Below, in pieces: positions 1,515 through 25,991 of a stretch of DNA of 64,000 nucleotides. How positions within the stretch are numbered: the stretch's first letter is position 1; each line of letters opens with the position of its first letter. This DNA is from Elsinoe ampelina. Its lineage: Eukaryota. The position numbers were made by a program, and so were the translations under genes. The DNA is taken from contig ML992511.1 in the NCBI GenBank assembly GCA_010093995.1, positions 763,516 through 827,515 of the forward strand. Direction: 5' to 3'. The notes below the pieces were generated by a model. It was not told the origin of the DNA. It saw only the letters and a list, made by a program, of their open reading frames with translations, and did no database searches.

Positions 1515-3252
1515 CTATATCGATGCTGATCTACGCAGTATCCCCTGCGTCCTGTTCAACCTGCTGACGGTAATATCTGCCTCACCACCATTATTGTTGA
1601 TCAATCGGTCATGCAGCTGGCGAAGCAGGTACATCTCGTGTTCGCCAAGGGCATCTTCTGGTAGCTTCCTGTTCTTCCCCATCAGAGCATCATGTCCTGT
1701 ATATTCCCAGTAGGGTCCCGTCTCATCGTTACCAAGATCCACTGCTGAGAGATCCTCAACGTCGTTGTTGTAGTTGCCATCATAAAATCTCCAGCCAGTC
1801 AGTGGGCCACCCTGGCGAGGGTCGTAAGGAGGTGCATCTCCATCACGCCGCAAGAGTTTGTGGAGGAGGGATTGCAGCCGGAATCTGACAGCAATAGACA
1901 GTAGCCCAGCGTCCGGATCTGACTCAAACCCTCGACCGAGACCAATCCTCACTCGTACCGAGGCATGTACCCGTTCGTTGGTATTCCTGAGTAGCCTGGA
2001 ATGATCCACATAGTCGCTGGCTGGCTTGAGTGGTCGCGTCCTTCCTGGTTTCCGCACTATACGTCCAGTGAACAGGTGTGGTAAAGTCATTGAATCGTGA
2101 ATAGCGCCTTCTGCCCATGCCCTCTCTCCACCTCGATCCCGTTGATACTCCTGATTATGTCGTATCTGCTCGCCCAGGTAGTCCGAGTCAAACTCGAGCC
2201 AGTCGAGAGCATTCCACTTGTCCCCTTTCTTGTGCTCATCACCACTCAATTGGTCCATCATCCATGCCATGGTGATGTTGGAGATGTCTCGATCAGAGTA
2301 CGCTCCTCCGATCGATGAGTGAGCACCTGGAAACCAAGTCTGCTTCAGCTGAGTATTGCATCCATCAGGCCGCTCCCAAATACTGGGATGGAAGGGAGCT
2401 CGGAATTCATCCAGTGCCAGAGCTTGAAAGGCGTACAGAATGTTGTTGCTAAGGCTGGTGTCTACCCACATGTATTTGTGGAGAAATGCTGGTAGGCGGA
2501 AGAGCTTTTGGAAGATTGGGTTCACTGGGATTCCCAATGCCCCTACTGTATCAAAGACTCCGATGGCGGAGATGCGAATATCCCGTGTCCAGCCGATCGA
2601 CAATAACGCCTTTTGATACTCGTCAATATACTCGTGCACAACACCGGGATTGTCAGATGGCGTTTTAAGACTGTGGCCATCTCTGCCGTGCTTCTTCTCG
2701 TATTCAGACCATTTCGACCAGAAGAGCGGTTTGTACTTGCTCTTCCCCGCGTGTTGCCAATCCGAGAAGATATCGTAAAACCAGTCGATATGCTCCTTCT
2801 TGAGCAGACCGAATTGACTGAGCAAGCCGCCGAGGTTCCTTGCCGTGTATGCACCCCTGGAGAAGCCGACCAAGAAGATCTTGTCACCAGCGTTCGCCAC
2901 CGCATTGTAGTTGACAGCAAGGAAAGAGTATGCTTCCCGGACGTTCTCCGAGAATCCTCGACCTGTACCCCCGCCGATGAATTGACTGGTCGGACCAAAG
3001 CCCGTGCCAATGCCAGCCTGGTAGAAAACGATTTGCTGATTTCCCTGAGAATCAACAGGAAGGATGGCTCTCTTCGCAAGCCTGGTCACATTGCTTGGTG
3101 CTCCGCGTTGTTGCTGATTACTGTTCATCCATGTTCCTACTAGACATTAGCCAGAATCCAGCCCGACGAACGAATCACATACCATCGCAGCAGACAACGA
3201 GTTTCTTTGGTCGAAACGTATGAACGTTTGGTACACTCCCGCGACTAGACAT
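1515..3252 (-). CDS. DUF2235 (Tle1-like alpha/beta hydrolase, putative phospholipase)
   Basis: Exon 1 from ATG 3252 (MSSRG...KKLVVCCDG) splices over a GT-AG intron to (G)TWMN, giving the CCDGTW motif. Also SNVTRL, FYQAGIGT, nucleophile elbow GFSRG, VFDTVG, QALALDE and WFPGAHS. Confidence 0.9.
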
Positions 3253-5103: not shown

Positions 5104-5558
5104 GATCAAGTAGATGTAAGTCGTCAGCAACACGATCTGATTACTGGGGACTCGAAGTCACAAAGATCTCCAACAGAGGCCGATGACGTGTGCATCTATA
5201 TCGGGTGTTGACCGGGCACATGTCGCCGCCGCCATCGCCGCATCTTCTAACACCTGCAGACCCTTGACTCGTGCAGGCACGGAGATGTCGGGCCGATGTT
5301 CCTGTCTCTCAATTCATCCTTGCTAATCTGCAAGAGATGGGACTAACATTCATAAAACACCTTCTTCTTACTACTCGCTCCAGATTGACACGCAAGCCTA
5401 CCTACTAGCTGCCGACCGGTCATCTAGTCGCCGCATCATTGACCAAGCCCAGCATACGACGGCTCTATCTGCCCGACAGGGGCTTGACACCACATCAGAC
5501 CTGCATGTCGCAACGATAAACTACCATATCGGCTCTTGAGCCATCACACTCTTTCAAC

Positions 5559-7457
5559 ATGCCCTCCCGTGGCTACAACCCATGTTCATACCTCCCTCGA
5601 CGACTTCAAATCGTAGCAAGCCTCACAGTCTTTGTACTCTTAACCATTCTATTCTTTGGATCATCTTCAGATCAAGCGGCGCATTACAGAGACGAACTCT
5701 CTCAAGGTGCGAAGAAAGCGGCCAATTTGTATAATGAGAACGTACACCGACAATGGTCAGAATCTGCCTTGAACCCTTTTCGCGCACCGGCGCATAAACC
5801 ACCACCAGACCAGGCCAACAGCACGAGTGGAGACATAGCATGGTTCAGCGATTGGAAATGGAGGAACCCCTTTTCGATATCGATAGCGTACGACGACAGA
5901 GCAGTATTGCCGCCAGAGGAACCCAGAACTCCCATCTATACCTACTACGACCATGATGTAAAGAAGAGCAAGGAAGAGAAGGAGGCAGAGCATGACCTTC
6001 TACTCGCATGGAGAAGAGCTTGGTGGGCAAAGGGATTCAAGCCAGTGGTGCTGGGTCGCCCAGAAGCCCTGAATAATCCGCTGTACAGAGCTATGCAGGC
6101 GCGGAAGATAGAGCCTACACTGGAGACCGACCTGCTGCGCTGGCTTGCGTGGGGAAATATGGGCACCGGCATTCTCTCGAACTGGCTTGCATACCCCATG
6201 TGCGATTACGATGCCAGCATGATGCAATTTCTGAGGGCTGGCGAGTTCCCGGCCTTGACGAGATTTAAGAACCTCGACACGGCATTCTTCGTCGGCAGCA
6301 AGAAGGAGATCAATGCTGCTGTCAAGACCGCGCTGGACATGGCGCAACTGCCGAAAGGAGATTCTCTTGTCGAAATACTGCCAAAACCCTTATTCAGAGT
6401 CGACCCTGACAGCAGCGCCATTGCCTTTTACGGGAAAGATGCCCTTCAGAGCAAATACAAGCAGGTCTATGAGAAGCTGGCAAGCAAGGATGTCGGTCTC
6501 AAGGTCGTGGGTGAGGTTGAGCTTCGCAAGATGATCGAGTCGCATCTGCACTCGACATGGCAGAGCATCTTCTCGGAAGGCATTGCTGTACTGCGACCCA
6601 TACCAGAAGCAATGACTGCTGCGACCAAGCCGGCTTTTGCGCTGGCTGAGAATCTTACAACCTGTCTGGAAACACCCCTTGCATCTTCTTGCCCACCCAA
6701 CATCCCAAAATGCGAGACATGCATGACATCAAAGCCCATGATGATCGAAACGCCAAAAGTCTACCGAAACCTGTCTGACGTCTTTACCATCGGCACCGTC
6801 CCCCACCCCTGGACAACACAAGCCCTCATCAAGCACCAACCTATCCCCTCCATGAAAGCGCTCCGCCGCAACACCGACCGCGACTCGTTCATCCTCGCTC
6901 TGACAGCCGAAGTGCTCGGCACAGGACGCTCCTCCTACGAACGCATCGTGTACATGAAGGACTCCATCGCCTCGGAGCGAGGCAAGGCTCACTCCCTCTG
7001 GCTCACCGCCGAGCGCGCTCTCGACGAGCACTGGCGCGACGAAGTCTCCTGGCTCCTCGGCTTCCCCATCGCCACCGCCCCTCCCAACTCCGGCAAGTCC
7101 GAAACCCCAGTCCCCGGCCCGGAGCGCCGCATCAAGCCCGCAGACTCGAAGAAGAAGAAATTCGTCCCGGCCAAGATGCCGGATGAGAAGGGCATCAAGC
7201 GCGAAGGGGTGCTTGTCGATCAGAGTCGGGCGTGGTTGAAGAAGAAGCCGAGTAAGCTCGAGAAGCGTATGCGAGAGGCAGTGGAGGCGTGGAACCTCGC
7301 GGATCATGAGTTGTGGAATTTTGTGAGGGCGTTTGCGGCGCAGAGACGGATGGAGAGGGATAAGTTTGAGGAGGAGGAGAGGAAGTTTGCGGGCTCGGGA
7401 GGGAGCTCCAGAGGGAGCTGGGGGGGAAGGTGGTTTGGGAAGAAGGATGATTTGTAG
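5559..7457 (+). CDS. Uncharacterised type II membrane protein, 632 aa (possible glycosyltransferase-like fold)
   Basis: Long single-exon ORF; one N-terminal TM helix (IVASLTVFVLLTILFFG); Cys cluster SCPPN..KC..C. Confidence 0.8.
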   Translation: MPSRGYNPCSYLPRRLQIVASLTVFVLLTILFFGSSSDQAAHYRDELSQGAKKAANLYNENVHRQWSESALNPFRAPAHKPPPDQANSTSGDIAWFSDWKWRNPFSISIAYDDRAVLPPEEPRTPIYTYYDHDVKKSKEEKEAEHDLLLAWRRAWWAKGFKPVVLGRPEALNNPLYRAMQARKIEPTLETDLLRWLAWGNMGTGILSNWLAYPMCDYDASMMQFLRAGEFPALTRFKNLDTAFFVGSKKEINAAVKTALDMAQLPKGDSLVEILPKPLFRVDPDSSAIAFYGKDALQSKYKQVYEKLASKDVGLKVVGEVELRKMIESHLHSTWQSIFSEGIAVLRPIPEAMTAATKPAFALAENLTTCLETPLASSCPPNIPKCETCMTSKPMMIETPKVYRNLSDVFTIGTVPHPWTTQALIKHQPIPSMKALRRNTDRDSFILALTAEVLGTGRSSYERIVYMKDSIASERGKAHSLWLTAERALDEHWRDEVSWLLGFPIATAPPNSGKSETPVPGPERRIKPADSKKKKFVPAKMPDEKGIKREGVLVDQSRAWLKKKPSKLEKRMREAVEAWNLADHELWNFVRAFAAQRRMERDKFEEEERKFAGSGGSSRGSWGGRWFGKKDDL

Positions 7458-10590: not shown

Positions 10591-11296
10591 CTACTTCCTG
10601 GTGGCACGCTGGTAGAAAGCCAGCTCCTCACCCTCCAAGATGTATCCGTCGCATCGTCCGCTCTGACCTGGACGCGAGGTGATCACCGCCAACAAACGTC
10701 CAGCCTCGACCTGCTTCTCGATGGCGGACTCGGCCTTGCCGCTGGTGGTGAACCTCTCGCCCTGCTTCTTCTCAACCGATTTGCTCTTCTTGGTCTCCTC
10801 CTCGGTGGTCTTGGCCTGCCTTCTGCGTCCAAGGTTCTGTCCATAGTGTGCCTCGTACCATTGCCTGAAAGGAGCCGCGTCGATCTGGACTACAGCGGAG
10901 CGGGTCAGGGTGTTTGTGCGGACAAGTTCGTTGTTGGAAGGGTGGTAGGCGACAGCAATGATACGGGTCTTCCTTGTGATCGACTCGCTGCCCCAGGAGA
11001 AGTTGCCGCTGTCCAGGCGAAGACCGCGGAACTTGCGGTTACCACCACGGGTGCGGACAAGATGGATGCGCTTGGGACCAATGCGAGTTGAACTCGCTTG
11101 TCTTCCGCGCTCGAAAGCTCTGCACTCCTATTAGGAAGTGAAGCAATCGGGTTATGGGTACAATTACCTCTTCTTGCGATAGGTCGCACGCTTTGCGCCG
11201 GTAGCGCTGCGCTTGTGGCGAGAATCACGAGAGATACTGCGCAATGTCAGCTGCTGAGTAATTTGAGTATAACATAGATGTCGATAGATACCCCAT
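10591..11296 (-). CDS. RPS8: 40S ribosomal protein S8 (eS8)
   Basis: Spliced translation MGISRDSRHKRSATGAKRATYRKKR|AFERGRQASSTRIGPKRIHLVRTRGGN...SRPGQSGRCDGYILEGEELAFYQRATRK*; two introns. Confidence 0.97.
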
Positions 11297-12628
11297 GATT
11301 GTGGTTGGCGAATGTCACTGGCGTCAATGACCTTCTCTTGTCGTGTATGTTCAGCTTGAACTTTGCGATCTCAAATTCATGGAGGCATGTCGGAAAAGAT
11401 TTTCTCCGTGGGCCCCTTCGGCCCAAGCTTTGTCGGCAGATCTCCGGCAGCCGCCATGTCAATCTTCGACCTCTGAAGGATCATTTCTCAACAACATCGT
11501 ATCTTTGCTCCTTTTGCGAACCATATCAATGATCCCCCGAGCTCATTGCAGTCCTCAAATCTTTTACTTGAAGTCCGCTGCCTTGTGCTTGTCTTGTATT
11601 GCGTAGCCAGGACCGCCCACCAATCTCCTCATGTAGAAACATCGCTCTCATGGAAGTCCATTTGTCCTCATCCATACTGTATTTCGTTCTCGCTGAGGTA
11701 AAGGCGAGGAATGCACTCTGGAGATGCCCTCCAGCTCACGTAATACTGCACAGATCTGGAGGCACAGCAGCTATAGAGACCTGTTGGCGATACTCCCGGC
11801 GGAATCGCACTGAACGAGCACAAGCAATTCGTCTGGCCCAGGTCAATCGTCAGCATACTGCACAGACTTGCAGAGAGTTCTACATGGAGCTTGATTACCG
11901 GACCACTCTAAAGCGGGCGAGGATCCAGAGCAATCTGGCCAGACGGCTAGCAACGACAAGGGGAGATAGCAGGTGATCTTGGCGAGACCTCCCATGAATG
12001 GCGCTCCGTAAGAATGGATCTCGGCTGCTGATGGTGATTACATAAACGGCGTATCGCCTCCTAGTCGTCTCATGGGTGTAAGGCTGCTGTAAGTCTATTC
12101 CGATTGGGTGGCCTGCTTGAATCCTATGAATGGCGTGCACGACCAGACCTGTCTCATTTGTCCTCTCCGCAAACATACAGGGATGACTGTAAATTACAGA
12201 GGGGAAGACAAACGCTTCTTACCGAATCGTGATTGACATGTTCATTGAATGTTTGCACCAAACCTGCATTATGGTGAGCCAAGGTAATCCTCACTTATAC
12301 GTGACCACGGAAGGAACAACAGAGTGTATGGTCGCAATGGATACTCTGCTAGAGATGTGAAAATCATGTCCACACAAGCTGTGCATGTGCAAGACGCAAG
12401 CTCGCTACTTGCCGTTTGTTGGCCTGATCCGGCAACAGCCTGACATCACCCTCTCGAAGCTACCTCGTGAATCTCCGACGACTGATTTTTCCTTGATCTG
12501 CTTCCGTTTCTTGTCTCACAAACACAATCCAGCTTGCAATCCGCAGATGACCTCGTTCTAAGCTAAGATACTTCAAAATTGTATCTTCCGACAACCTCAT
12601 AACGCTTCCACATAATTTCATCGCCGCG

Positions 12629-15325
12629 ATGAAGGATACACTGCCTTCAGACAAGAAGCCAAAATTGAGCGCACAAGACAACACCCTTCAGCATGTACGT
12701 GCAACGCTGTTGCGAATGAAGCGCCCAGACAGAGTCGTCTCTGCGCGTACCTCTACCGAAAAGCCCTCACATGGTCAGAAATTGGACGTAAAGCGACCTC
12801 CCGACTTGCCTTATAAGTGTGGCGAAGAACACTGCATCGTCTGTTTTGAGCAGTACTTCCCTGCTGCTCTTCAAGTCACCGACGCAGAGGCAGGTGTAAT
12901 GGCTAACGCATTGCGGAATTCGATCACACAGAATTTCACAATACTTCAAGCTGCCGTCATTTCACATTCGACACAAATCACATCCAGGTGGCGCAACAAA
13001 TCCAAGGGCAAGCGCGCCGAACTCCTCCAAGAGCACACGACGCTCTGCCACGAAAGGTGGGGCTCGCTCCATCTACTGGATGCTCATTCGGAAGAGGCGC
13101 AGAAGAAGATGACAGAATTTGACCTGAAGCATGTCGAGGAATCGGAAAAGATAGTGACGACATACATCTCCCAGTGGCTGAACAAAATACTGCTCGACGG
13201 TATGGCCAAGGAGGGCTTTCAGGATAGCTGGTTTCTGCCGTACTTGGATGTGGAGACATTGTCAGAAGATCCAGCTGGTCTCTTAGGCATGATTCTGAAT
13301 CGCGCGCGCTTCCATCCGGCCGAATGGGTTGGCTTTGACAGTAGCCAGATGGTCCTCTCTGAGCAGATGGCAGTTCTCGATCCGACCTTCAACAAGAAGT
13401 GTATTGCACTTGATCCTACCAGCTATGGATCACTTGTGCCGTGGGACAAGGAGAAGGCTCACAGCTGGAAGATAATGGGATTCACGAAAGCCCGACATCT
13501 CTTGACATCCCAATCCAAGATTCTGCAGCTGCTAGTCAACGTCGTTTTCCAACTTCTACCCTCCGAAGTGGTCACAGGATTACGCACAGCGATACCAATC
13601 CCAGCTCTGGACCTTCACATGGCCGCAAATCTCGGTCGCCGACAGTCAACACTGAGCCGGTCCGAGTACCTTGATCAACCTTTTCGATCACCACCAACCT
13701 GTGACGCAGAGGAGATCCTGAACAAAGCTCGCCTCCGGTGGGAAGCTGCAATCGATGATCTTGAGCTACTCCAGACCGACCCTGCCTTCCTACAGCTGAA
13801 GGTTCGTCAGCTTGCAGCAGGTGCCTATTTCGAACACATTGAAGCCAAAGACAAATGGGTCTGGTTCACAGACGAGATAGTGCTCAATGCCTTACGAAGA
13901 GAAGCATATCTGCGCCAACTTGTATGGGAATGTCAAAAACTTGTCGCCGCTCGCAGGTCGATGACAGATTCATCTGATCCCGATGCAGCAGCTCAGTACG
14001 ACATCATGCTACACGTCGTCGAAGACTGTTGTATCGAACTGTTGGCGGTACAGATCGAGAAATTGCAATTCGGCCTGCCATTCAAGACTGGCTTCGAGAA
14101 GAACTACGAGTTTGAAAGTCACAAGGTCAACAAGACCGGCCGGAAGAAGCCTCTGGTAATCTACCGAGACTACTTCATTCACGACCCTCTCTACTGGAGC
14201 CTGGGCTGCATTGGATGGGATGAGCATCGGCCATTCACAATGGATCCAGTTTTCAACATCCGGGTACTCGAACATTGCATGTCTAAAGGAGCAAAGAGTG
14301 ATCGACAACGTCTCGATCAAGCGACGTACGATCAAATTGATGACATTGCTGTCATCGATGAGATTCGCTTTGCTGTGCGCTGCAACACCTCCCGGAACCG
14401 GAAGCATGCTGTCGTGGAGCTCAAGCGCATGTTGAAGGCCCCGGAACGTACCAACTACATCAAGAAAGTCAAGAATGTGTCCTTTGGAGACATCAATATC
14501 GGGTTGCGAGGCACTCTCCGCGACGTGATGCAGCCCTCATGGCCAACCGGTCCGAAGAACGAGACCTGGCTAGCTCAGGCTGATCAATGCCGTGCAAACC
14601 TTTCTCGTTTCTGGACCAGGTTTCGCGGACTCTACCGGACTCAGCAGATCAAGGCTGGCTTCGCCGAAGATTTCATCCAGGCAGAAATCGACGTCGTTTC
14701 GGCTGATCTTTCAGAACGCTTCGTCGCAGAGGTACGTGATGCGCGGAATGCGATCTTGAACAAGTCCGGGTCAGTCGGTGCCCAACGGAGCCTTCCTCAC
14801 GATCTAGCAACTACCAGTGTGCCTCGTCCACAAATTTATGATCAGAAGGAAAATGTGCAGATCGGACCCATGCGACACACCAAAGTCAAGACACGGGGAA
14901 AGGCCAAGGATGAGTCTATGCCAGTGTCAGTCTTACCCCTCAAGGAACTCGAAGTTCCAGCCAGTGTGGCGCCGGTCCAGGTGGCCAGAGACAATCTCCT
15001 CGTCTTTAAACAGATGTTCCCCAGCGACGACGAGCACTTCACTCGGAAGCTATCCTGGCAGCACTTCTGCGCAGCAATGGTAGATGCTGGCTTTGCAATG
15101 ACTCAAGGAAGCGGGTCCGCGGTATCCTTCAAGCAGTCCGATACTTTCCACCCTAGTCCAGCTTCTGGAGCAAGTGGCAGCATTGTCTTCCACCGCCCAC
15201 ATCCCGACTCTTCGATTGACCCCATCATGCTGCGCTCCTTCGGTAAGAGGCTCGAGAAGTGGTTCGGTTGGAGTAGAGAGCTTTTTGTTGAGCGGGTGAA
15301 GAGAGAGGGAGAAGCTCCGGCCTGA
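12629..15325 (+). CDS. 898-aa uncharacterised fungal protein with a C-terminal HicA-toxin-like domain
   Basis: Intronless 2.7-kb ORF; N-terminal C-x4-C-x2-C motif, long predicted-helical body, C-terminus LSWQHFCAAMVDAGF...GSGSAVSF...SIVFHRPHP...FGKRLEKWFGW. Confidence 0.85.
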   Translation: MKDTLPSDKKPKLSAQDNTLQHVRATLLRMKRPDRVVSARTSTEKPSHGQKLDVKRPPDLPYKCGEEHCIVCFEQYFPAALQVTDAEAGVMANALRNSITQNFTILQAAVISHSTQITSRWRNKSKGKRAELLQEHTTLCHERWGSLHLLDAHSEEAQKKMTEFDLKHVEESEKIVTTYISQWLNKILLDGMAKEGFQDSWFLPYLDVETLSEDPAGLLGMILNRARFHPAEWVGFDSSQMVLSEQMAVLDPTFNKKCIALDPTSYGSLVPWDKEKAHSWKIMGFTKARHLLTSQSKILQLLVNVVFQLLPSEVVTGLRTAIPIPALDLHMAANLGRRQSTLSRSEYLDQPFRSPPTCDAEEILNKARLRWEAAIDDLELLQTDPAFLQLKVRQLAAGAYFEHIEAKDKWVWFTDEIVLNALRREAYLRQLVWECQKLVAARRSMTDSSDPDAAAQYDIMLHVVEDCCIELLAVQIEKLQFGLPFKTGFEKNYEFESHKVNKTGRKKPLVIYRDYFIHDPLYWSLGCIGWDEHRPFTMDPVFNIRVLEHCMSKGAKSDRQRLDQATYDQIDDIAVIDEIRFAVRCNTSRNRKHAVVELKRMLKAPERTNYIKKVKNVSFGDINIGLRGTLRDVMQPSWPTGPKNETWLAQADQCRANLSRFWTRFRGLYRTQQIKAGFAEDFIQAEIDVVSADLSERFVAEVRDARNAILNKSGSVGAQRSLPHDLATTSVPRPQIYDQKENVQIGPMRHTKVKTRGKAKDESMPVSVLPLKELEVPASVAPVQVARDNLLVFKQMFPSDDEHFTRKLSWQHFCAAMVDAGFAMTQGSGSAVSFKQSDTFHPSPASGASGSIVFHRPHPDSSIDPIMLRSFGKRLEKWFGWSRELFVERVKREGEAPA

Positions 15326-16859
15326 TCATTTGAATGGGCAGGAGCGTTGGTGGTCGACGGCTGCGGAGTTGGGAATCTTTGTCCACGGACGCTGCTGTCG
15401 ACCTTGGAGAAGGATTGCTGCACTGCTTGAGGACGCTGATAGCAGAAGATAACATCAAGATACAAAGGCCTGACCAGCCACGAGAGGCATGGTTCCGCAG
15501 TAGAAATGTAGATTTACTGGACCCTCTGTGCCGTGCGTGTCGATTGTCCTTGGTCAATTATGCGGTTCGATAGTATGATCACGACCTTCAGGGGTTTGAC
15601 AACGCTTCACAGCATCTACCCCGTTCGGGAGGATAAGTCATTATCTCAAGATACCATTCCCAACAGCGTGACTATGCCGATATGCTGCTTTGAATACTTG
15701 TTGTGAGAATCAAGCAGGATGCGACTGAGTGGTGTGATGCATCCCGAAGCTTTGACGTCAGACCTCGGCAGATGCCCCAACCTCAAGAGAATCTCTCTGC
15801 CCGTCCACCATTCTTCCATTCTCGCACGACTTCCTTCGACACCTCAGATTCGGTCCACGTGATCCTGAAGAGGAACTGACGCCACTGCTTTGGTGGCGAT
15901 GGCGCCTCTGCAGCCGTTGTTGTGGGCCAGTAGAGCCGCGAGCATACCGTGGAATTGCGAGCAGTTGTAAGCAGTCTCTTGAGAACGGAGCAGGCATGGT
16001 GGGGCTTTCATATGGTGAAATGATCCTGGAAGACCATAGAATCATTTCAATTGGTAGGCTCTTATATATGCTCTATAACTCTCGTTCACTGGCATCAAGA
16101 ACTTAATAGTCCAACATAGCGGACTGTTCGTATCATAGACAAACAGCTGACCAAGCGTCCGTTCACCCTCTCTCGCAGCAGCCAAAGGGTATGTTATATC
16201 CCTGGAGATTCCCTGGGTTTGCACGGACTGAGCGCGATGGTGCCCGGATAATGTGCCTTCAAAGCAATTGTTCTCTTCAGAGCGAGCCTGCCACACGCTC
16301 ATCGGACATGGGGCCCGAAGAGATGATTCTCATCATCTTCAGACCCTGCTTTGGACGTTCTCTCCTGCTACTTTACTAGTACACCACAGCAGGAGTATAT
16401 AAGAAATCCAAGACCCATTCGACGGAACTTCTTGCGACAGTCTTGCTATATATATCACACCTGATCTCGCATCGCAGCATCAATCTCGCTCCGACGATCA
16501 ACACATTTCCAGTACCTGATTCTCACCCCAAATTGCTTTGCATTCAAGCTGCACTCTTCACAAAGAGTATCATCTCTGAAGTTCGCATCACTTCTCTTCT
16601 ATGGCATATCATCTCACTTGAATCAGCAGGTTCGCTTCACGACGCTTACTTGTTCATCACCAGTCCAACAATTTCTTAACATTTCAGATCTTTGGCTGGC
16701 CAATTTGCCATCAAAATCAAGTCAATACGAGCTCTCGGGACTTTCACTACATCTTCACTTCAATTGGAGTGAGTCGTATCATACGCTACATCCGCGCGTC
16801 CAGACAATTTACATCAAGTACGGCTTTCTCTTCTTGTCTTGATCGACCTCATATGGATC

Positions 16860-19800
16860 ATGGACGACACATTCGACAGACCGTCAGCAGCTTCGGCTGG
16901 TTCAACTAGGAGCATGACACAGGCTGCAAAGCAAACGAACGCCTGTGTTGATCTACCCCAATCCCACAACCACTCAGACTTCGACACAATTTTGGACGAC
17001 TTCACCAAAGCTGGCGCACCGGAGCTTGACGGAGTCACAGAGAGCTATCCCAGTACGTACCAGGAGGATGCTCAGGACATTCCACCTCGTCATTTACATG
17101 ACAGATCGATCAGTCCCGGCGATAATTGCGAAGACACGCAATTCACCGCCAATACTGCAGACTGGCTGCTGGATCCCACTACATTGGAGATGAATCCCAT
17201 GTTCGAGACCTCGTTCTACAACGACGACGAGGACGCCTATCAGGGTGTCGAGCCTGTAGAACTGGAGGGGGACGGTGTGAAGATAAACCCTGAGATACAT
17301 AACTCCACTGAGACACAGCCAGCAGCTCCATATGAGGACTTCGAGCTGCCAAAAGTGAAGAATGAGCCTGCATATACTGCGTCGAAGCCGAAGAGAGCCC
17401 GAGATGAGAACGAAGACCTGGAATTGCAACAAAGATATGCCAAAAAGCCCAGGCACATTGTTGCTGGCAGAAAAGATCCAATTCGACAACCTACTAATTC
17501 AAAGCCTGTTTCAGCGCTCGAGGAATTGGCAGAGGAGATCCGCCCGACTGACATCTTCGCCGACGCTGAAGAGATGCAAGATGTACGTTCCCAGCCAGTC
17601 TTTGGAAACAACTCCTCACGATCTGCTGCTCTGAAGCAGCTGGGCAAAAGCGCTTCCGAAACGATCAAGGGAAGCTACTCGCATGACAGAAAGCTGCTCA
17701 ACCAGGCATGTCGGGCCTTTCGCAAAGGTCAAATTAGTCCGGAAGCGGGCGGTGGTAGTGGTTGGAAGGTCTTGGGAATGAAATCGACACTCAAACCACA
17801 CCAAGTTATTGGCACGGCGTTCATGCTCAACCAAGAGAAGAAGGGTAAGGGTGGCATTCTGGCCGACCAGATGGGCTTAGGCAAGACCGTCACAACTCTT
17901 GCATTGATCAACAAGAAGACAGCCAAGCGCGCATCGCATCCCGGTCCGACGCTCGTGGTCGCGCCAAAAGCTGTCAACCGTCAGTGGCTTGACGAGATAT
18001 ACAAGCACTGTGAGACCGGTGGAGTAACGCATGGCATCGCTCGCTGCAAGATATTCAAGGCTTCGACAGAGAAAGAGAACATCACACCTGATAATCCTCC
18101 AGAAAGGCTACTGCAGGACTTTGACATCGTAATCACGACGTACAAGCAAGTGGAGATGAGCTTCCCCTCGGACGAGCCCCCTCCTGGACTCAGTGACGCC
18201 CAAAAACAACTGTGGCGAGAGAGAAACTTTGAGAAGAACAAGGGGATTTTGCATCATACAAAATTCCATCGGATTGTGCTGGACGAAGCACACGAAGTCA
18301 GGAATCCCGAGACGGCCACGTATCAAGCTGTAAAAGCTCTTCGATTCAAGTATTGCTGGAGCTTGACCGGCACGCCATTCTACAATGGTCTTTTCGACGT
18401 CTACAATCTGCTGGATCTAAGCGGAGTAGACGTTGGCATGCCCTACGGTGTCTTCGAGAGTAAATACTGGGACATCCCCAGTGGCAAAGACGCTAGGATA
18501 TACCTTGATCTTCTTCGACTCAGTATGGTCCGCAGGACACACCGAAGTCTATTGTTCGGCGCAAGACTCGTCACCCTGCCCAAAACGAACGCCGTCGTCT
18601 TCCGGCTTCATTTCACACCCGTGGAACGTGCAATCTACGACATCATCGAGAAAAGATTCCGCGAGAAGATGACGGAGTTGTTGCTAGCAGGTGAGGAGAG
18701 GGAAGCCCGGAAGTACGCCTTGATCGTTCTTCTCCGATTGCGTCAACTCACTGCCCATCCTCTGGTTCTCCATACAAAGATGCTTGACCTCTTGGAACGT
18801 CGAGACCTCATCGAACTCCAAGAGATCATCCAGAAAGAGCGAAAACAACTCAGGGTCAATGGGACTGCACTCCTGGATAAGCTAAGCAAGACTTTAGCTG
18901 GTATCGACGCTCAGGAACAGACCACGTCACGTCTGGTGGTTGAAGGACCGGAAGTGGTGGATCTCACGAGAGAGGATGATGGCGGAAGGGCTGACGGCAC
19001 AGGAAGATACCACGGAATCCGACAGAAGTTCGACAAATACATCGAGAATCTGATTGCAACCAAGGACAAAAATGCACTCATTGCAGCCAATCAGTGCGTC
19101 GAATGCAAAGGCGAGGCGAAAAAGCCACAGATCACAAGCTGCATGCACATCTTGTGCAAGGAGTGTCTTACCGACATACAAGACGAGGCTGCTTCAGCCA
19201 GTCTGGGTCGTGCGAAATGCCCCACTTGCAAGGAAGTGTTCGAAAGTGTCGAGGCTCAAGCCGCGGAGTCCGAGTACAAGCCGAATCTTAGCAAGAAGAA
19301 GAAAGCTCAGGTGAATTCCCTCGAGATCGATCTCAAGGATCTTCTCGGTGTCGACGGTAAGGTCATTCCTTCGACCAAGACGTATGCGCTGAAGGCGAGG
19401 ATCATGCTGTACCGCAGGAATGAACCAGACGTCAAGATCATCGTCTTCACGCAGTGGCTAGGCATGATTCGTATACTGGAATCCATCTGTGAGGCAGAGG
19501 AGTGGAAGTGCATCAAGTACCATGGACATATGACCGCGATACAGAGGCACGATGCTGTCGAGCAGTTCGGCAAGGACAAAAGCATCTGCATCATGCTTTG
19601 CAGTCTGCAGGCTGGTGGCGTGGGGATAAACCTGACGATGGCTTCCAGAGTCATCTGCGTCGATCATTGGTAAGTCAGCCGATCCTTCCATTCTGACTAT
19701 TGCTAACATATCGCAGGTGGAATAATGGTATGACAACTTAAAAAACAGATTTGCTATTGCTAACCATTGCTCCAGCCGTCGAAGAGCAAGCCTTCAGTCG

Positions 19801-24280: not shown

Positions 24281-24975
<695 letters not shown>

Positions 24976-25137
24976 TTTTGAATAATGAGTGTGGTTGTGT
25001 CGAAGGAAAGGTGTGGACTTGGCTTGATGATCCTAGGAGAGATGGAGGCGATGAAGTCGCTATTTGTATCTGATATGTCGCCCATTGTGAGCTGTGAAAC
25101 TTCTCTCTCCCGTGTTTTGCCACGCTGAACAGCAGTA

Positions 25138-25991
25138 GGCTAAATTGTGAGATTGAACTTGTGTCAGATGGTGAACTCGGCTGGTTGTTTAGCTCATGTG
25201 GAGAAGAGCAAATTAAGCTCTCCAAGCATTTGCCCACAAGACGCGATGAAAGCTTATTCTCCATGATCGAGCCAGGGGCAGGAACAAGGAACCACGCATC
25301 CACCTCGCCCGCAGGGGTAAGTATAACCTCCCAAGCCCAAGAGCAATAAGAAATTTCATCTCGCAGTGTGTCTTTTATCGGGCCGTCCGCGATTGCGATG
25401 GTTGACTGCGTTCCAGCGATACCCACAAAATGGGTGTTCCCGACCACATGCACTCTAGTGTCGCAAATGCTCAAACGTCGTCCGGCTAATTCTTTGAACA
25501 TTGCGTGTGCGACTGGCAGCATTTGCCAAAGCAATGACTAACAGAAGATATCCATTCGAGCGTACGTCCTTGCGCATGTCGATAGGATTATACTTTGTCT
25601 TTGAGAAAGCTCTGTTACCGAACATGATGGCGGTAAAAATCGCAAAGGCTGTATCCTTGTCCAAAGTGTAATGAGGAGGGTGAAGTGTGGGGTAAGAAAC
25701 ACAGGTGTGGAACACAAGCATGCTCAAGCTTCTGGCTGCATTAGGGATCGTCGTTCGCTTCGGACCACTCAGCTGGCCCTCGAGGAGATGAAACAGGGAC
25801 AATGCTGACGAACCCTTATGGAGTCGAGACCAAGACTGTCTTTCGCGAATAGCCTATAAAGCATTCATAGTCCTTCGAAACATGAATCGGGCCGAAGTAG
25901 AAAAGCAGGTCTCGTCGCTTCGTTGGTCATGTGGTGGTATCGCTCCTCAGTGCACGTTGTTGGTCGATGTACCTCGTATGGGCCGGCTAAA
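25138..25991. promoter_or_regulatory. Putative XlnR sites (GGCTAA) and CreA-like sites upstream of the xylanase
   Basis: GGCTAAA at 25138 and 25985, GGCTAA at 25484; SYGGRG matches at 25198 and 25687. Confidence 0.5.

What the first reader, a model, noticed from the sequence alone, without database searches (positions are those of the whole stretch)
12629..15325. Eukaryotic protein ending in a bacterial HicA-like RNase toxin domain
Seen: the last ~110 aa (nt ~14987-15300) read DNLLVFKQMF...KLSWQHFCAAMVDAGFAMTQGSGSAVSF...SIVFHRPHPDSSIDPIMLRSFGKRLEKWFGW. Known: one class of bacterial HicA mRNA interferases (dsRBD-like fold) has the pattern TL..IF...I.W.DI..LL..LG.....G.GSRV.F....FHRPHP, and motif order and spacing match well. 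The domain is joined by a low-complexity linker to about 700 aa of predicted-helical sequence with an N-terminal Cys motif. I saw no HicB-like gene. Inference: a single-chain sensor/auto-inhibitor plus RNase effector, possibly a fungal antiviral, allorecognition or cell-death protein derived from a toxin-antitoxin toxin. I know of no characterised fungal example.
Basis: partly seen in the sequence, partly recalled or inferred. Interest (0 to 1): 0.8.

Follow-up and report, generated by a model that had tools for sequence, protein, structure and literature searches.

The report
Fungal protein ending in HicA-like domain
A fungal gene encodes an 898-residue protein whose tail is a genuine relative of a small bacterial plasmid toxin that attacks RNA; over a thousand related protein clusters share this unstudied design, so it is a real lead but not unique to this genome.

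Summary
Window 12629-15325 (+) is one intronless 898-aa ORF. Its last ~110 residues are a HicA-type domain.

Two corrections:
- The classical catalytic His after Gly-Ser is absent. It is Ala831 here and His in 0 of 169 family domains. His855 and His858 are nearly invariant.
- The gene is not a rarity. The tail finds 1048 protein clusters, nearly all with the domain at the C-terminus. All named hits are fungal, and most longer ones share the same helical N-terminal domain. Public records already label some of them HicA-like automatically.

I found no paper on fungal members. RNase activity, auto-inhibition and any immune or cell-death role remain untested inferences. No HicB-like sequence is present. 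The N-terminal domain has no recognisable relatives. Verdict: a real, conserved eukaryotic variant of a bacterial toxin domain, of moderate interest.

The parts
12629..15325 (+). Whole intronless gene, 898 aa plus stop codon
   Evidence: ORF list and translation. Homologues align from Met1 to the end. The Elsinoe batatas protein P0174 has the same length and 828 of 898 identical residues, with no indels.
12818..12844 (+). N-terminal Cys motif C64-x4-C69-x2-C72 (possible metal site)
   Evidence: C69 and C72 are nearly invariant in 14 homologues. Positions checked. Metal binding is inferred only.
12806..14788 (+). Family-specific, mostly helical N-terminal domain (residues ~60-720)
   Evidence: AlphaFold2 model with pLDDT mostly 70-95 and long helices. 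A local HMM of this region finds it in 109 of 173 proteins held at that point. No Pfam, NCBIfam or PADLOC match. Only generic helix-bundle fold matches, Z<=8.2.
14774..14965 (+). Disordered, poorly conserved linker (residues 716-779), holding a basic K-x-K-T patch at 752-755
   Evidence: pLDDT <50 for 716-779. Identity to homologues is 10-25% here against 43-67% in the tail. The K.KT consensus is seen.
14966..15298 (+). HicA-like domain (residues 780-890): extra strand and helix alpha0, then alpha1-beta1-beta2-beta3-alpha2, then a conserved WFGW..E.F tail
   Evidence: PF07927 match at residues 810-873. AlphaFold2 model of the tail has pLDDT 88 and pTM 0.80. Best PDB representatives are 1whz_A, 4p78_D, 6g26_E and 5yrz_D, all HicA. 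hhalign to plasmid HicA toxins gives 97.8%.
15113..15121 (+). Gly829-Ser830-Ala831: the conserved beta1-beta2 turn, followed by Ala where classical HicA has its catalytic His
   Evidence: G and S are each present in 165 of 169 domains. The next residue is Ala in 125 and His in 0 of 169. The role of the His in classical HicA comes from passages of PMC6159526 and PMC11594946.
15191..15205 (+). His855-Arg-Pro-His858-Pro motif at the end of strand beta3: candidate active or RNA-binding site
   Evidence: H855 is conserved in 163 of 169 domains, H858 in 165, P857 in 164. The same H(R/K)PHP is in 5 of 5 plasmid HicA toxins. H858-P859 also align with His-Pro of E. coli K-12 HicA.

Best explanation
The ORF is a single gene of a large, uncharacterised family of fungal proteins (Ascomycota and Basidiomycota). 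Its last ~110 residues are a true homologue of bacterial HicA toxins. The closest relatives are the plasmid-borne subclass that carries GSR...H(R/K)PHP in place of the classical Gly-Ser-His motif. A ~60-residue disordered linker joins the tail to a ~660-residue helical N-terminal domain that occurs only in this family.

Most likely the tail binds RNA and probably cuts it. The candidate catalytic residues are the near-invariant His855/His858 pair. From the alternating hydrophobic pattern of strands beta2 and beta3, I infer that His855 lies across the strand from Ala831, the position of the classical catalytic His. The N-terminal domain would target or restrain the tail.

Shown here: homology, fold, motif conservation, the fixed two-domain architecture, and its breadth in fungi. 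Inferred: RNA binding, catalysis, control by the N-terminal domain, and any biological role.
For: - Pfam PF07927: E 2.9e-6 and 27.7 bits on the tail; 14 of 14 family tails match; 13 of 16 long relatives match, up to 86 bits.
- The AlphaFold2 tail model has pLDDT 88 and secondary structure in the order helix-strand-strand-strand-helix.
- In an unbiased comparison with 48,161 PDB representatives, ranks 1-4 are HicA proteins that are covered almost completely. These are 1whz_A (Z 5.2, rmsd 2.8, 69 of 70 residues), 4p78_D (Z 5.0, 60 of 66), 6g26_E (Z 4.9, 61 of 61) and 5yrz_D (Z 4.6, 56 of 58). The first other fold scores Z 3.6.
- hhalign to five plasmid HicA toxins, each next to a HicB gene, gives 97.8% and E 7.2e-13.
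- An IncX4 plasmid HicA from an overlapping hicAB operon is reported toxic in E. coli K-12 and neutralised by HicB (passage of PMC11878559). L003 is an IncX4 plasmid with overlapping hicA/hicB of the GSR/HRPHP type. Lack of the classical His therefore need not abolish toxicity.
- Conservation in 169 domains: W810 169, GS 165, H855 163, H858 165. R874 and K877 in helix alpha2 are invariant in 14 homologues.
- The tail is the best-conserved part of the protein: 43-67% identity against 20-55% for the N-terminal domain.
- The architecture is fixed. The domain is C-terminal in nearly all of the best 150 hits. Only two of the 64 proteins without the N-terminal region exceed 350 aa.
Against: - The His shown to be essential in classical HicA is absent in 169 of 169 domains.
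- The Arg that replaces it in the bacterial subclass (5 of 5) is Ala in 125 of 169 fungal domains. The fungal site therefore differs from both bacterial types and could be inactive.
- The sequence link to solved HicA structures is weak. No HicA chain appears in three PDB sequence searches. The best Foldseek HicA row has E 0.38. Structural Z is only about 5, in a range the tool itself calls unremarkable. hhalign to E. coli K-12 HicA alone is not significant.
- On the whole protein the Pfam score (23 bits) is below the curated cut-off of 27.
- I did not compare the sequence of the toxic IncX4 HicA of PMC11878559 with L003.
- No fungal member has any experimental data that I could find.
- Nothing shows that the N-terminal domain regulates the tail.
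Confidence: 0.55

Rival explanations
1. The tail is a catalytically dead, dsRBD-like binding module for RNA or for a protein partner. The protein would be an ordinary, non-toxic factor of RNA metabolism or regulation in filamentous fungi, and the HxPHP motif would be structural or used for binding.
For: - The classical catalytic His is absent in 169 of 169 domains, and the Arg of the bacterial subclass is mostly lost (Ala in 125 of 169).
- No antitoxin-like sequence is present. A constitutively toxic RNase would need some restraint.
- The family is large, conserved and of fixed architecture.
- The locus is an ordinary chromosomal one between ribosomal protein S8e and an SNF2/RING helicase.
- The ortholog in Elsinoe batatas has the same length and is 92% identical.
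Against: - Near-invariance of two His residues in a five-residue motif shared with toxic plasmid HicA proteins fits catalysis better than scaffolding.
- The HicA fold has so far been described only as an RNase toxin in the papers read.
Confidence: 0.3
2. The protein is a self-guarded toxin of a fungal conflict system (antiviral, allorecognition or programmed cell death). The N-terminal domain senses a trigger and releases the HicA-like RNase.
For: - The tail is homologous to plasmid toxins.
- A single chain with a long flexible linker and no separate antitoxin fits such a design.
- Bacteria have fused HicA designs (HicA-HicB fusions, SMC-HicA) that have been proposed, not shown, to act in defence (PMC10865869, sections 5 and 12).
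- Several paralogues exist per genome in Elsinoe australis, Fulvia fulva and Aureobasidium subglaciale.
- The best Elsinoe australis relative is only 54% identical, although an Elsinoe batatas ortholog is 92% identical.
Against: - No NACHT, HET, HeLo, TIR or repeat domain, nor any other Pfam or PADLOC family, is present.
- The N-terminal domain was never seen with another effector.
- There is no evidence here of presence/absence polymorphism, balancing selection or induction.
- The catalytic competence of the tail is itself uncertain.
Confidence: 0.13
3. The HicA match is a chance resemblance, or the stretch is bacterial contamination or a very recent transfer.
For: The Pfam score sits at the threshold. 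Foldseek E-values are poor.
Against: - Independent lines agree: profile, profile-profile and fold comparisons.
- The domain is in frame at the end of a 2.7-kb fungal ORF flanked by eukaryotic genes (Ctf8, CLN3, RPS8, SNF2/RING).
- Base composition across the locus is even.
- The domain is found in 1048 protein clusters, and every named one I looked up is fungal.
Confidence: 0.02

Closest known systems
Plasmid HicA toxins of the GSR...H(R/K)PHP type with overlapping hicA-hicB genes (E. coli IncX4 WP_000520549.1 in L003; relatives on Shewanella, Acinetobacter, Rhizobium and Leptospira plasmids)
   Same: They share the N-terminal helix alpha0, the conserved Trp in alpha1, the Gly-Ser turn, the H(R/K)PHP motif after beta3 and a basic alpha2. 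Profile-profile probability is 97.8%. Like the fungal domain, they lack the classical His after Gly-Ser.
   Different: The bacterial proteins are 81-86 aa, stand alone and are paired with a HicB antitoxin gene. They have Arg after Gly-Ser in 5 of 5 cases. The fungal domain has Ala there, has a 10-20 residue insert between beta2 and beta3, has an extra conserved WFGW..E.F tail, is fused behind ~780 residues, and has no HicB.
Classical HicA mRNA interferases (E. coli K-12 HicA; Y. pestis HicA3, 4p78; B. pseudomallei HicA, 6g26/4c26; S. pneumoniae HicA, 5yrz; T. thermophilus TTHA1913, 1whz)
   Same: Same alpha-beta-beta-beta-alpha dsRBD-like fold. These are the top structural matches. Same Pfam family PF07927. 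The His-Pro after beta3 aligns with that of E. coli HicA.
   Different: The essential catalytic His in beta2 (His36, His28, His24 or His23 in the papers read) has no counterpart. There is no detectable sequence match to any solved HicA chain.
Fused prokaryotic HicA designs in Gerdes 2024 (PMC10865869): classes 11-13 (HicA-HicB fusions) and class 14 (SMC domain with C-terminal HicA)
   Same: A HicA domain sits in a single polypeptide. In class 14 it is at the C-terminus of a large, mostly helical protein (sections 5 and 12).
   Different: That survey searched bacterial phyla only (section 18) and does not mention fungi (0 occurrences). The fungal N-terminal domain gives no SMC, HicB or other Pfam match and has no Walker A motif.
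Automatically annotated fungal homologues in public databases
   Same: Same family and architecture. Examples are 'putative HicA mRNA interferase family' (Septoria linicola), 'putative mRNA binding protein' (Elsinoe australis) and 'predicted RNA binding protein YcfA (HicA-like mRNA interferase family)' (JGI). The precomputed PF07927 tag is on 8 of 13 first-round homologues.
   Different: These are machine labels only. I found no study of any of them.

Membership tests
HicA toxin family (Pfam PF07927) | Significant match to the family profile | tested here: met
   The tail alone scores 27.7-28 bits against the cut-off of 27, E 2.5-2.9e-6. 14 of 14 family tails match at E<=0.01. Relatives score up to 86 bits. 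The whole protein scores 23 bits, below the cut-off.
HicA toxin family (Pfam PF07927) | dsRBD-like alpha1-beta1-beta2-beta3-alpha2 fold | tested here: met
   Predicted model only (pLDDT 88). Four HicA structures are the best of 48,161 representatives: Z 4.6-5.2, rmsd 2.2-2.8, 56-69 residues aligned. The Z values are modest.
HicA toxin family (Pfam PF07927) | Conserved Gly(-Ser) turn between beta1 and beta2 | tested here: met
   G829 and S830 are invariant in 14 homologues. Each is present in 165 of 169 domains.
HicA toxin family (Pfam PF07927) | Catalytic His at the start of beta2 (Gly-Ser-His), essential for RNase activity in studied members | tested here: not met
   Ala831 in this protein. 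His occurs in 0 of 169 domains at this column. The definition of the feature comes from passages of PMC6159526 and PMC11594946.
HicA toxin family (Pfam PF07927) | RNA cleavage and growth inhibition | not testable with these tools
   Needs expression and enzyme assays.
HicAB type II toxin-antitoxin system | Cognate HicB antitoxin encoded next to, or fused with, HicA | tested here: not met
   No HicB-family Pfam match in the 898-aa protein at E<=10, in 15 flanking ORFs or in 11 large ORFs of 1-32 kb. The window beyond 32 kb and the rest of the genome were not searched; no genome is held.
Plasmid GSR/H(R/K)PHP subclass of HicA | H(R/K)PHP motif after beta3, N-terminal helix alpha0, profile similarity | tested here: met
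   HRPHP lies at 855-859. Alignment A5. hhalign 97.8%, E 7.2e-13.
Plasmid GSR/H(R/K)PHP subclass of HicA | Arg directly after Gly-Ser | tested here: not met
   Arg in 5 of 5 bacterial members. In the fungal domains it is Ala in 125 and Arg in 1 of 169.
SMC-HicA fusions (class 14 of PMC10865869) | N-terminal SMC ATPase domain | tested here: not met
   No SMC or other Pfam match. No Walker A pattern.
Fungal NLR/HET-type allorecognition and cell-death proteins | NACHT/NB-ARC, HET, HeLo or repeat domains | tested here: not met
   Pfam gives only PF07927 for this protein. For 16 long relatives, no other family is above its cut-off.

The most novel reading that the evidence does not exclude
Dikarya fungi domesticated a plasmid-type HicA toxin long ago. 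They now deploy it, in hundreds of lineages and often in several paralogues, as the business end of a ~900-residue single-chain, self-restrained RNase. In this reading the catalytic His has moved from strand beta2 to the neighbouring strand beta3 (His855), and the protein acts in antiviral defence or regulated cell death. It would be a eukaryotic counterpart of bacterial fused toxin-antitoxin and abortive-infection proteins.
Probability: 0.15. Interest if true: 0.8.

Novelty: new variant of a known kind. Interest (0 to 1): 0.55.

Why it matters
HicA is known as a small prokaryotic and phage toxin. The most complete survey of its genetic contexts that I read (PMC10865869) lists 14 arrangements, all prokaryotic. 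Here the same domain is the conserved C-terminus of a very large fungal protein family with a fixed partner domain of unknown fold.

If the tail is active, three things follow. It would show that a toxin-antitoxin RNase was taken over by eukaryotes. It would give a natural example of a HicA active site without the classical His, which also bears on the untested GSR/HxPHP plasmid toxins common on IncX4 plasmids. And it would open a new RNA-targeting pathway in plant-pathogenic and environmental fungi.

If the tail is inactive, it is an example of a toxin fold reused as a binding module. Either way the family is easy to test, and nothing on it appears in the literature I could search.

Tried and rejected
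- **PDB sequence searches.** The full-length profile, the tail and the tail profile found no HicA chain. Only chance-level rows appeared, E 0.09-1.1.
- **Foldseek against PDB with the tail.** Nothing at E<=0.001. HicA 6g26_F was rank 2 at E 0.38.
- **hhalign of the fungal or plasmid profiles with E. coli K-12 HicA alone.** Not significant, 0.2% and 2.7%.
- **NCBIfam and PADLOC.** No match.
- **N-terminal domain.** Foldseek gave TM about 0.1-0.2 only. VIA-align gave only generic helix bundles over residues ~355-594, best Z 8.2. This part was not folded on its own, so I do not claim a new fold.
- **ESM Atlas.** The nearest clusters are named 'Ipa protein' at scores of 0.81-0.87, below the 0.9 that the tool asks for. 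This is a lead only. A paper search for 'Ipa protein' plus Aspergillus gave 1 irrelevant paper.
- **Complex prediction of residues 60-720 against 777-898.** No verdict, score 0.00. This is neither for nor against docking.
- **Whole-genome copy number.** No genome is held. Within the window there is one copy.
- **The search for related loci in prokaryote genomes with the tail profile.** Only 3 loci. Not pursued.
- **Expression.** No RNA holder is listed. Run X3 is only guessed to be RNA, so its 1480-nt contig over 14110-15589 is not used as evidence.
- **Earlier findings of this scan.** Nothing relevant.
- **Literature.** Ten searches were run: HicA+fungi; PF07927; HicA+toxin+fungal+domain+horizontal; HicA catalytic terms; Ipa protein; HicA-like; IncX4+HicA; HicA+Ascomycota; HicA+eukaryotes+fusion+toxin-antitoxin+fungi; HicA_toxin. 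None returned a paper on a fungal HicA-domain protein. Many 'HICA' hits are hydroxyisocaproic acid or HiCanu. Subscription journals and supplements were not searched.
- **Rejected: contamination or recent transfer.** See the rival explanations.
- **Rejected: the short hits as free-standing fungal HicA genes.** Most short proteins start in the middle of the family profile or come from contigs of 1-3 kb, so they look like fragments.
Full report
**The object.** Window 12629-15325 (+) is an uninterrupted ORF of 898 codons. It lies in ordinary fungal chromosomal DNA. Neighbouring ORFs encode ribosomal protein S8e (10594-11127, -), an SNF2/RING helicase (16773-19670, +), Ctf8, CLN3, a steroid reductase and a Tle1-like lipase. 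GC content is even at about 50-55% around the locus. A look-up by cluster shows an 898-aa Elsinoe batatas protein (P0174) in the same 90% cluster as a 454-aa public model that is identical to residues 445-898 of this ORF. P0174 and the window protein share 828 of 898 residues with no indels. The window therefore comes from a close relative of that Dothideomycete. An 84.6-kb contig of coded run X6 covers 12400-15448 with 249 differences and no gaps. The frame is thus kept in a relative at about 92% DNA identity.

**Is the HicA resemblance real?** Yes, on three independent lines.
- *Family profile.* Pfam PF07927 (HicA_toxin) is the only family found. It scores 23 bits on the whole protein (below the cut-off of 27) and 27.7 bits, E 2.9e-6, on the last 122 residues. 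All 14 tails of the first homologue set match it, best 9.4e-9. So do 13 of 16 long relatives, up to 86 bits in a Mycena protein with three copies.
- *Fold.* An AlphaFold2 model of the tail, built on 14 sequences, is confident (pLDDT 88, pTM 0.80). It shows a short strand and helix followed by helix-strand-strand-strand-helix. Compared with 48,161 PDB representatives without any sequence filter, ranks 1-4 are 1whz_A (TTHA1913), 4p78_D (Y. pestis HicA3), 6g26_E (B. pseudomallei HicA) and 5yrz_D (S. pneumoniae HicA). Z is 4.6-5.2, rmsd 2.2-2.8 A, and nearly the whole of each chain is aligned. The first unrelated fold has Z 3.6, and E. coli HicA is rank 6. These Z values are modest, and Foldseek alone gives poor E-values. 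The fold evidence is therefore supportive rather than decisive.
- *The recalled bacterial motif.* tblastn of the tail against 72,556 plasmids gave six weak hits (E 0.3-0.7), all annotated HicA family toxins of Shewanella. That protein and four relatives from E. coli IncX4, Acinetobacter, Rhizobium and Leptospira plasmids all read GSRV.F....H(R/K)PHP. Each is followed by an annotated HicB gene. A profile-profile comparison of the 14 fungal tails with these five gives 97.8% probability, E 7.2e-13, over 66 columns.

In the HicA toxins that have been studied, a single conserved His at the start of strand beta2, just after a conserved Gly(-Ser) turn, is essential. It is His36 in S. pneumoniae, His28 in Y. 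pestis HicA3, His24 in B. pseudomallei and His23 in E. coli (passages of PMC6159526 and PMC11594946). The fungal family keeps the turn: G829 and S830 are each present in 165 of 169 domains. The next residue, however, is Ala in 125 of 169 domains and never His. The plasmid subclass has Arg there in 5 of 5 cases.

What the fungal and plasmid proteins share instead is H-(R/K)-P-H-P at the end of beta3. His855 is kept in 163 and His858 in 165 of 169 domains. The hydrophobic residues alternate in beta2 (V832, F834) and beta3 (I852, F854). From this I infer that His855 faces the same side of the sheet as residue 831 and lies directly across from it, so it could stand in for the classical His. This is an inference from the pattern, not a measurement, because I had no access to coordinates.

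A paper on mcr-1 plasmids reports that HicA of an IncX4 plasmid, from the overlapping hicAB subfamily, is toxic in E. coli K-12 and is neutralised by its HicB (passage of PMC11878559). L003 is such an IncX4 overlapping pair, but I did not compare the two sequences. If they are the same type, toxicity does not need the classical His.

**How common is it?** Very common. phmmer of the 122-residue tail against 1.84 billion cluster representatives gave 1048 proteins at E<=0.001 and 441 at E<=1e-10. In the best 150, the domain is almost always at the extreme C-terminus of proteins of 97-1306 aa.
- A local HMM of residues 60-720 finds the N-terminal domain in 109 of the 173 proteins held at that point. 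The 64 without it have a median length of 172 aa and look like fragments. The exceptions are two basidiomycete proteins made of three tandem HicA-like domains.
- Five proteins carry two or three copies of the domain.
- Every named relative I looked up is fungal. Most are Dothideomycetes: Elsinoe, Aureobasidium, Venturia, Fulvia, Pseudocercospora, Zymoseptoria, Septoria, Hortaea, Cercospora. Others are Akanthomyces (Sordariomycetes) and Mycena and Peniophora (Agaricomycetes).
- Several genomes hold more than one paralogue.
- A second word-based search with the full alignment found no member with a different C-terminal domain. The four members of 676-834 aa without the tail end in unrelated low-complexity text or stop short, on contigs of 4-6 kb.
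- Some public records already carry machine labels such as 'putative HicA mRNA interferase family'.

**The rest of the protein.** The full-length model (pLDDT 74, pTM 0.77) shows a helical body from about residue 70 to 720 and a disordered linker at 716-779. The linker is the least conserved part, and the tail is the best conserved. The body has no Pfam, NCBIfam or PADLOC match and no Walker A motif. It gives only generic four-helix-bundle fold matches. A C-x4-C-x2-C motif near the N-terminus is conserved at two Cys. Nothing identifies it as a sensor, an antitoxin or an enzyme.

**Reading.** I hold with high confidence (about 0.9) that the tail is a homologue of HicA of the GSR/HxPHP subclass. 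I hold with moderate confidence that it is an RNA-binding and probably RNA-cleaving module controlled or targeted by the N-terminal domain. The main rival is a catalytically inert binding module. The immune or cell-death reading is possible but has no positive evidence beyond ancestry and paralogy.

**Novelty.** Ten literature searches found no paper on fungal HicA-domain proteins. The survey of HicA contexts by Gerdes used bacterial phyla as search space and does not mention fungi (PMC10865869: abstract, sections 5, 6, 12 and 18 read, plus a term search). Its closest design is class 14, an SMC domain with a C-terminal HicA. This is therefore a new, eukaryotic variant of a known domain family. 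It is visible in databases but unstudied. This particular locus is an ordinary member of that family.

Noticed in passing
window 13961-15325 (+): The public gene model that matches this window (P0015, 454 aa) starts at internal Met445. The open frame, the 898-aa Elsinoe batatas ortholog and 13 homologues support a start at 12629. The deposited annotation probably truncates the gene and hides the N-terminal domain.
   Followed up: partly
P0017 (Mycena capillaripes, 514 aa), P0019 (Peniophora sp., 706 aa), P0016 (Fulvia fulva, 1137 aa), P0115 (Zymoseptoria brevis, 1281 aa), P0085 (288 aa): These proteins carry two or three HicA-like domains in one chain. The two basidiomycete proteins consist of three tandem copies and lack the ascomycete N-terminal domain. 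Tandem HicA domains were not among the 14 contexts listed in PMC10865869.
   Followed up: partly
window 14882-14896 (+), residues 752-756: A basic K-x-K-T(R) patch is the only conserved feature inside the otherwise variable disordered linker (consensus). It could be a nuclear localisation signal or a processing site.
   Followed up: no
window 1518-3146 (-): A 543-aa ORF gives a strong match to the catalytic domain of bacterial type VI secretion phospholipase effectors (PF09994, Tle1-like, E 4.7e-72). This is another bacterial-effector-type domain in this fungal stretch.
   Followed up: no
L001, L003-L006 (plasmid loci): The GSR/H(R/K)PHP type of HicA lacks the classical catalytic His. It is nevertheless very common on plasmids: 670 plasmid records match the Shewanella protein, 421 of them Escherichia. 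Its catalytic residues appear not to have been mapped in the papers I read.
   Followed up: partly
window 5520-7454 (+) and 24650-25537 (-): Long ORFs of 645 and 296 aa have no Pfam match at E<=0.01. They were not examined further.
   Followed up: no
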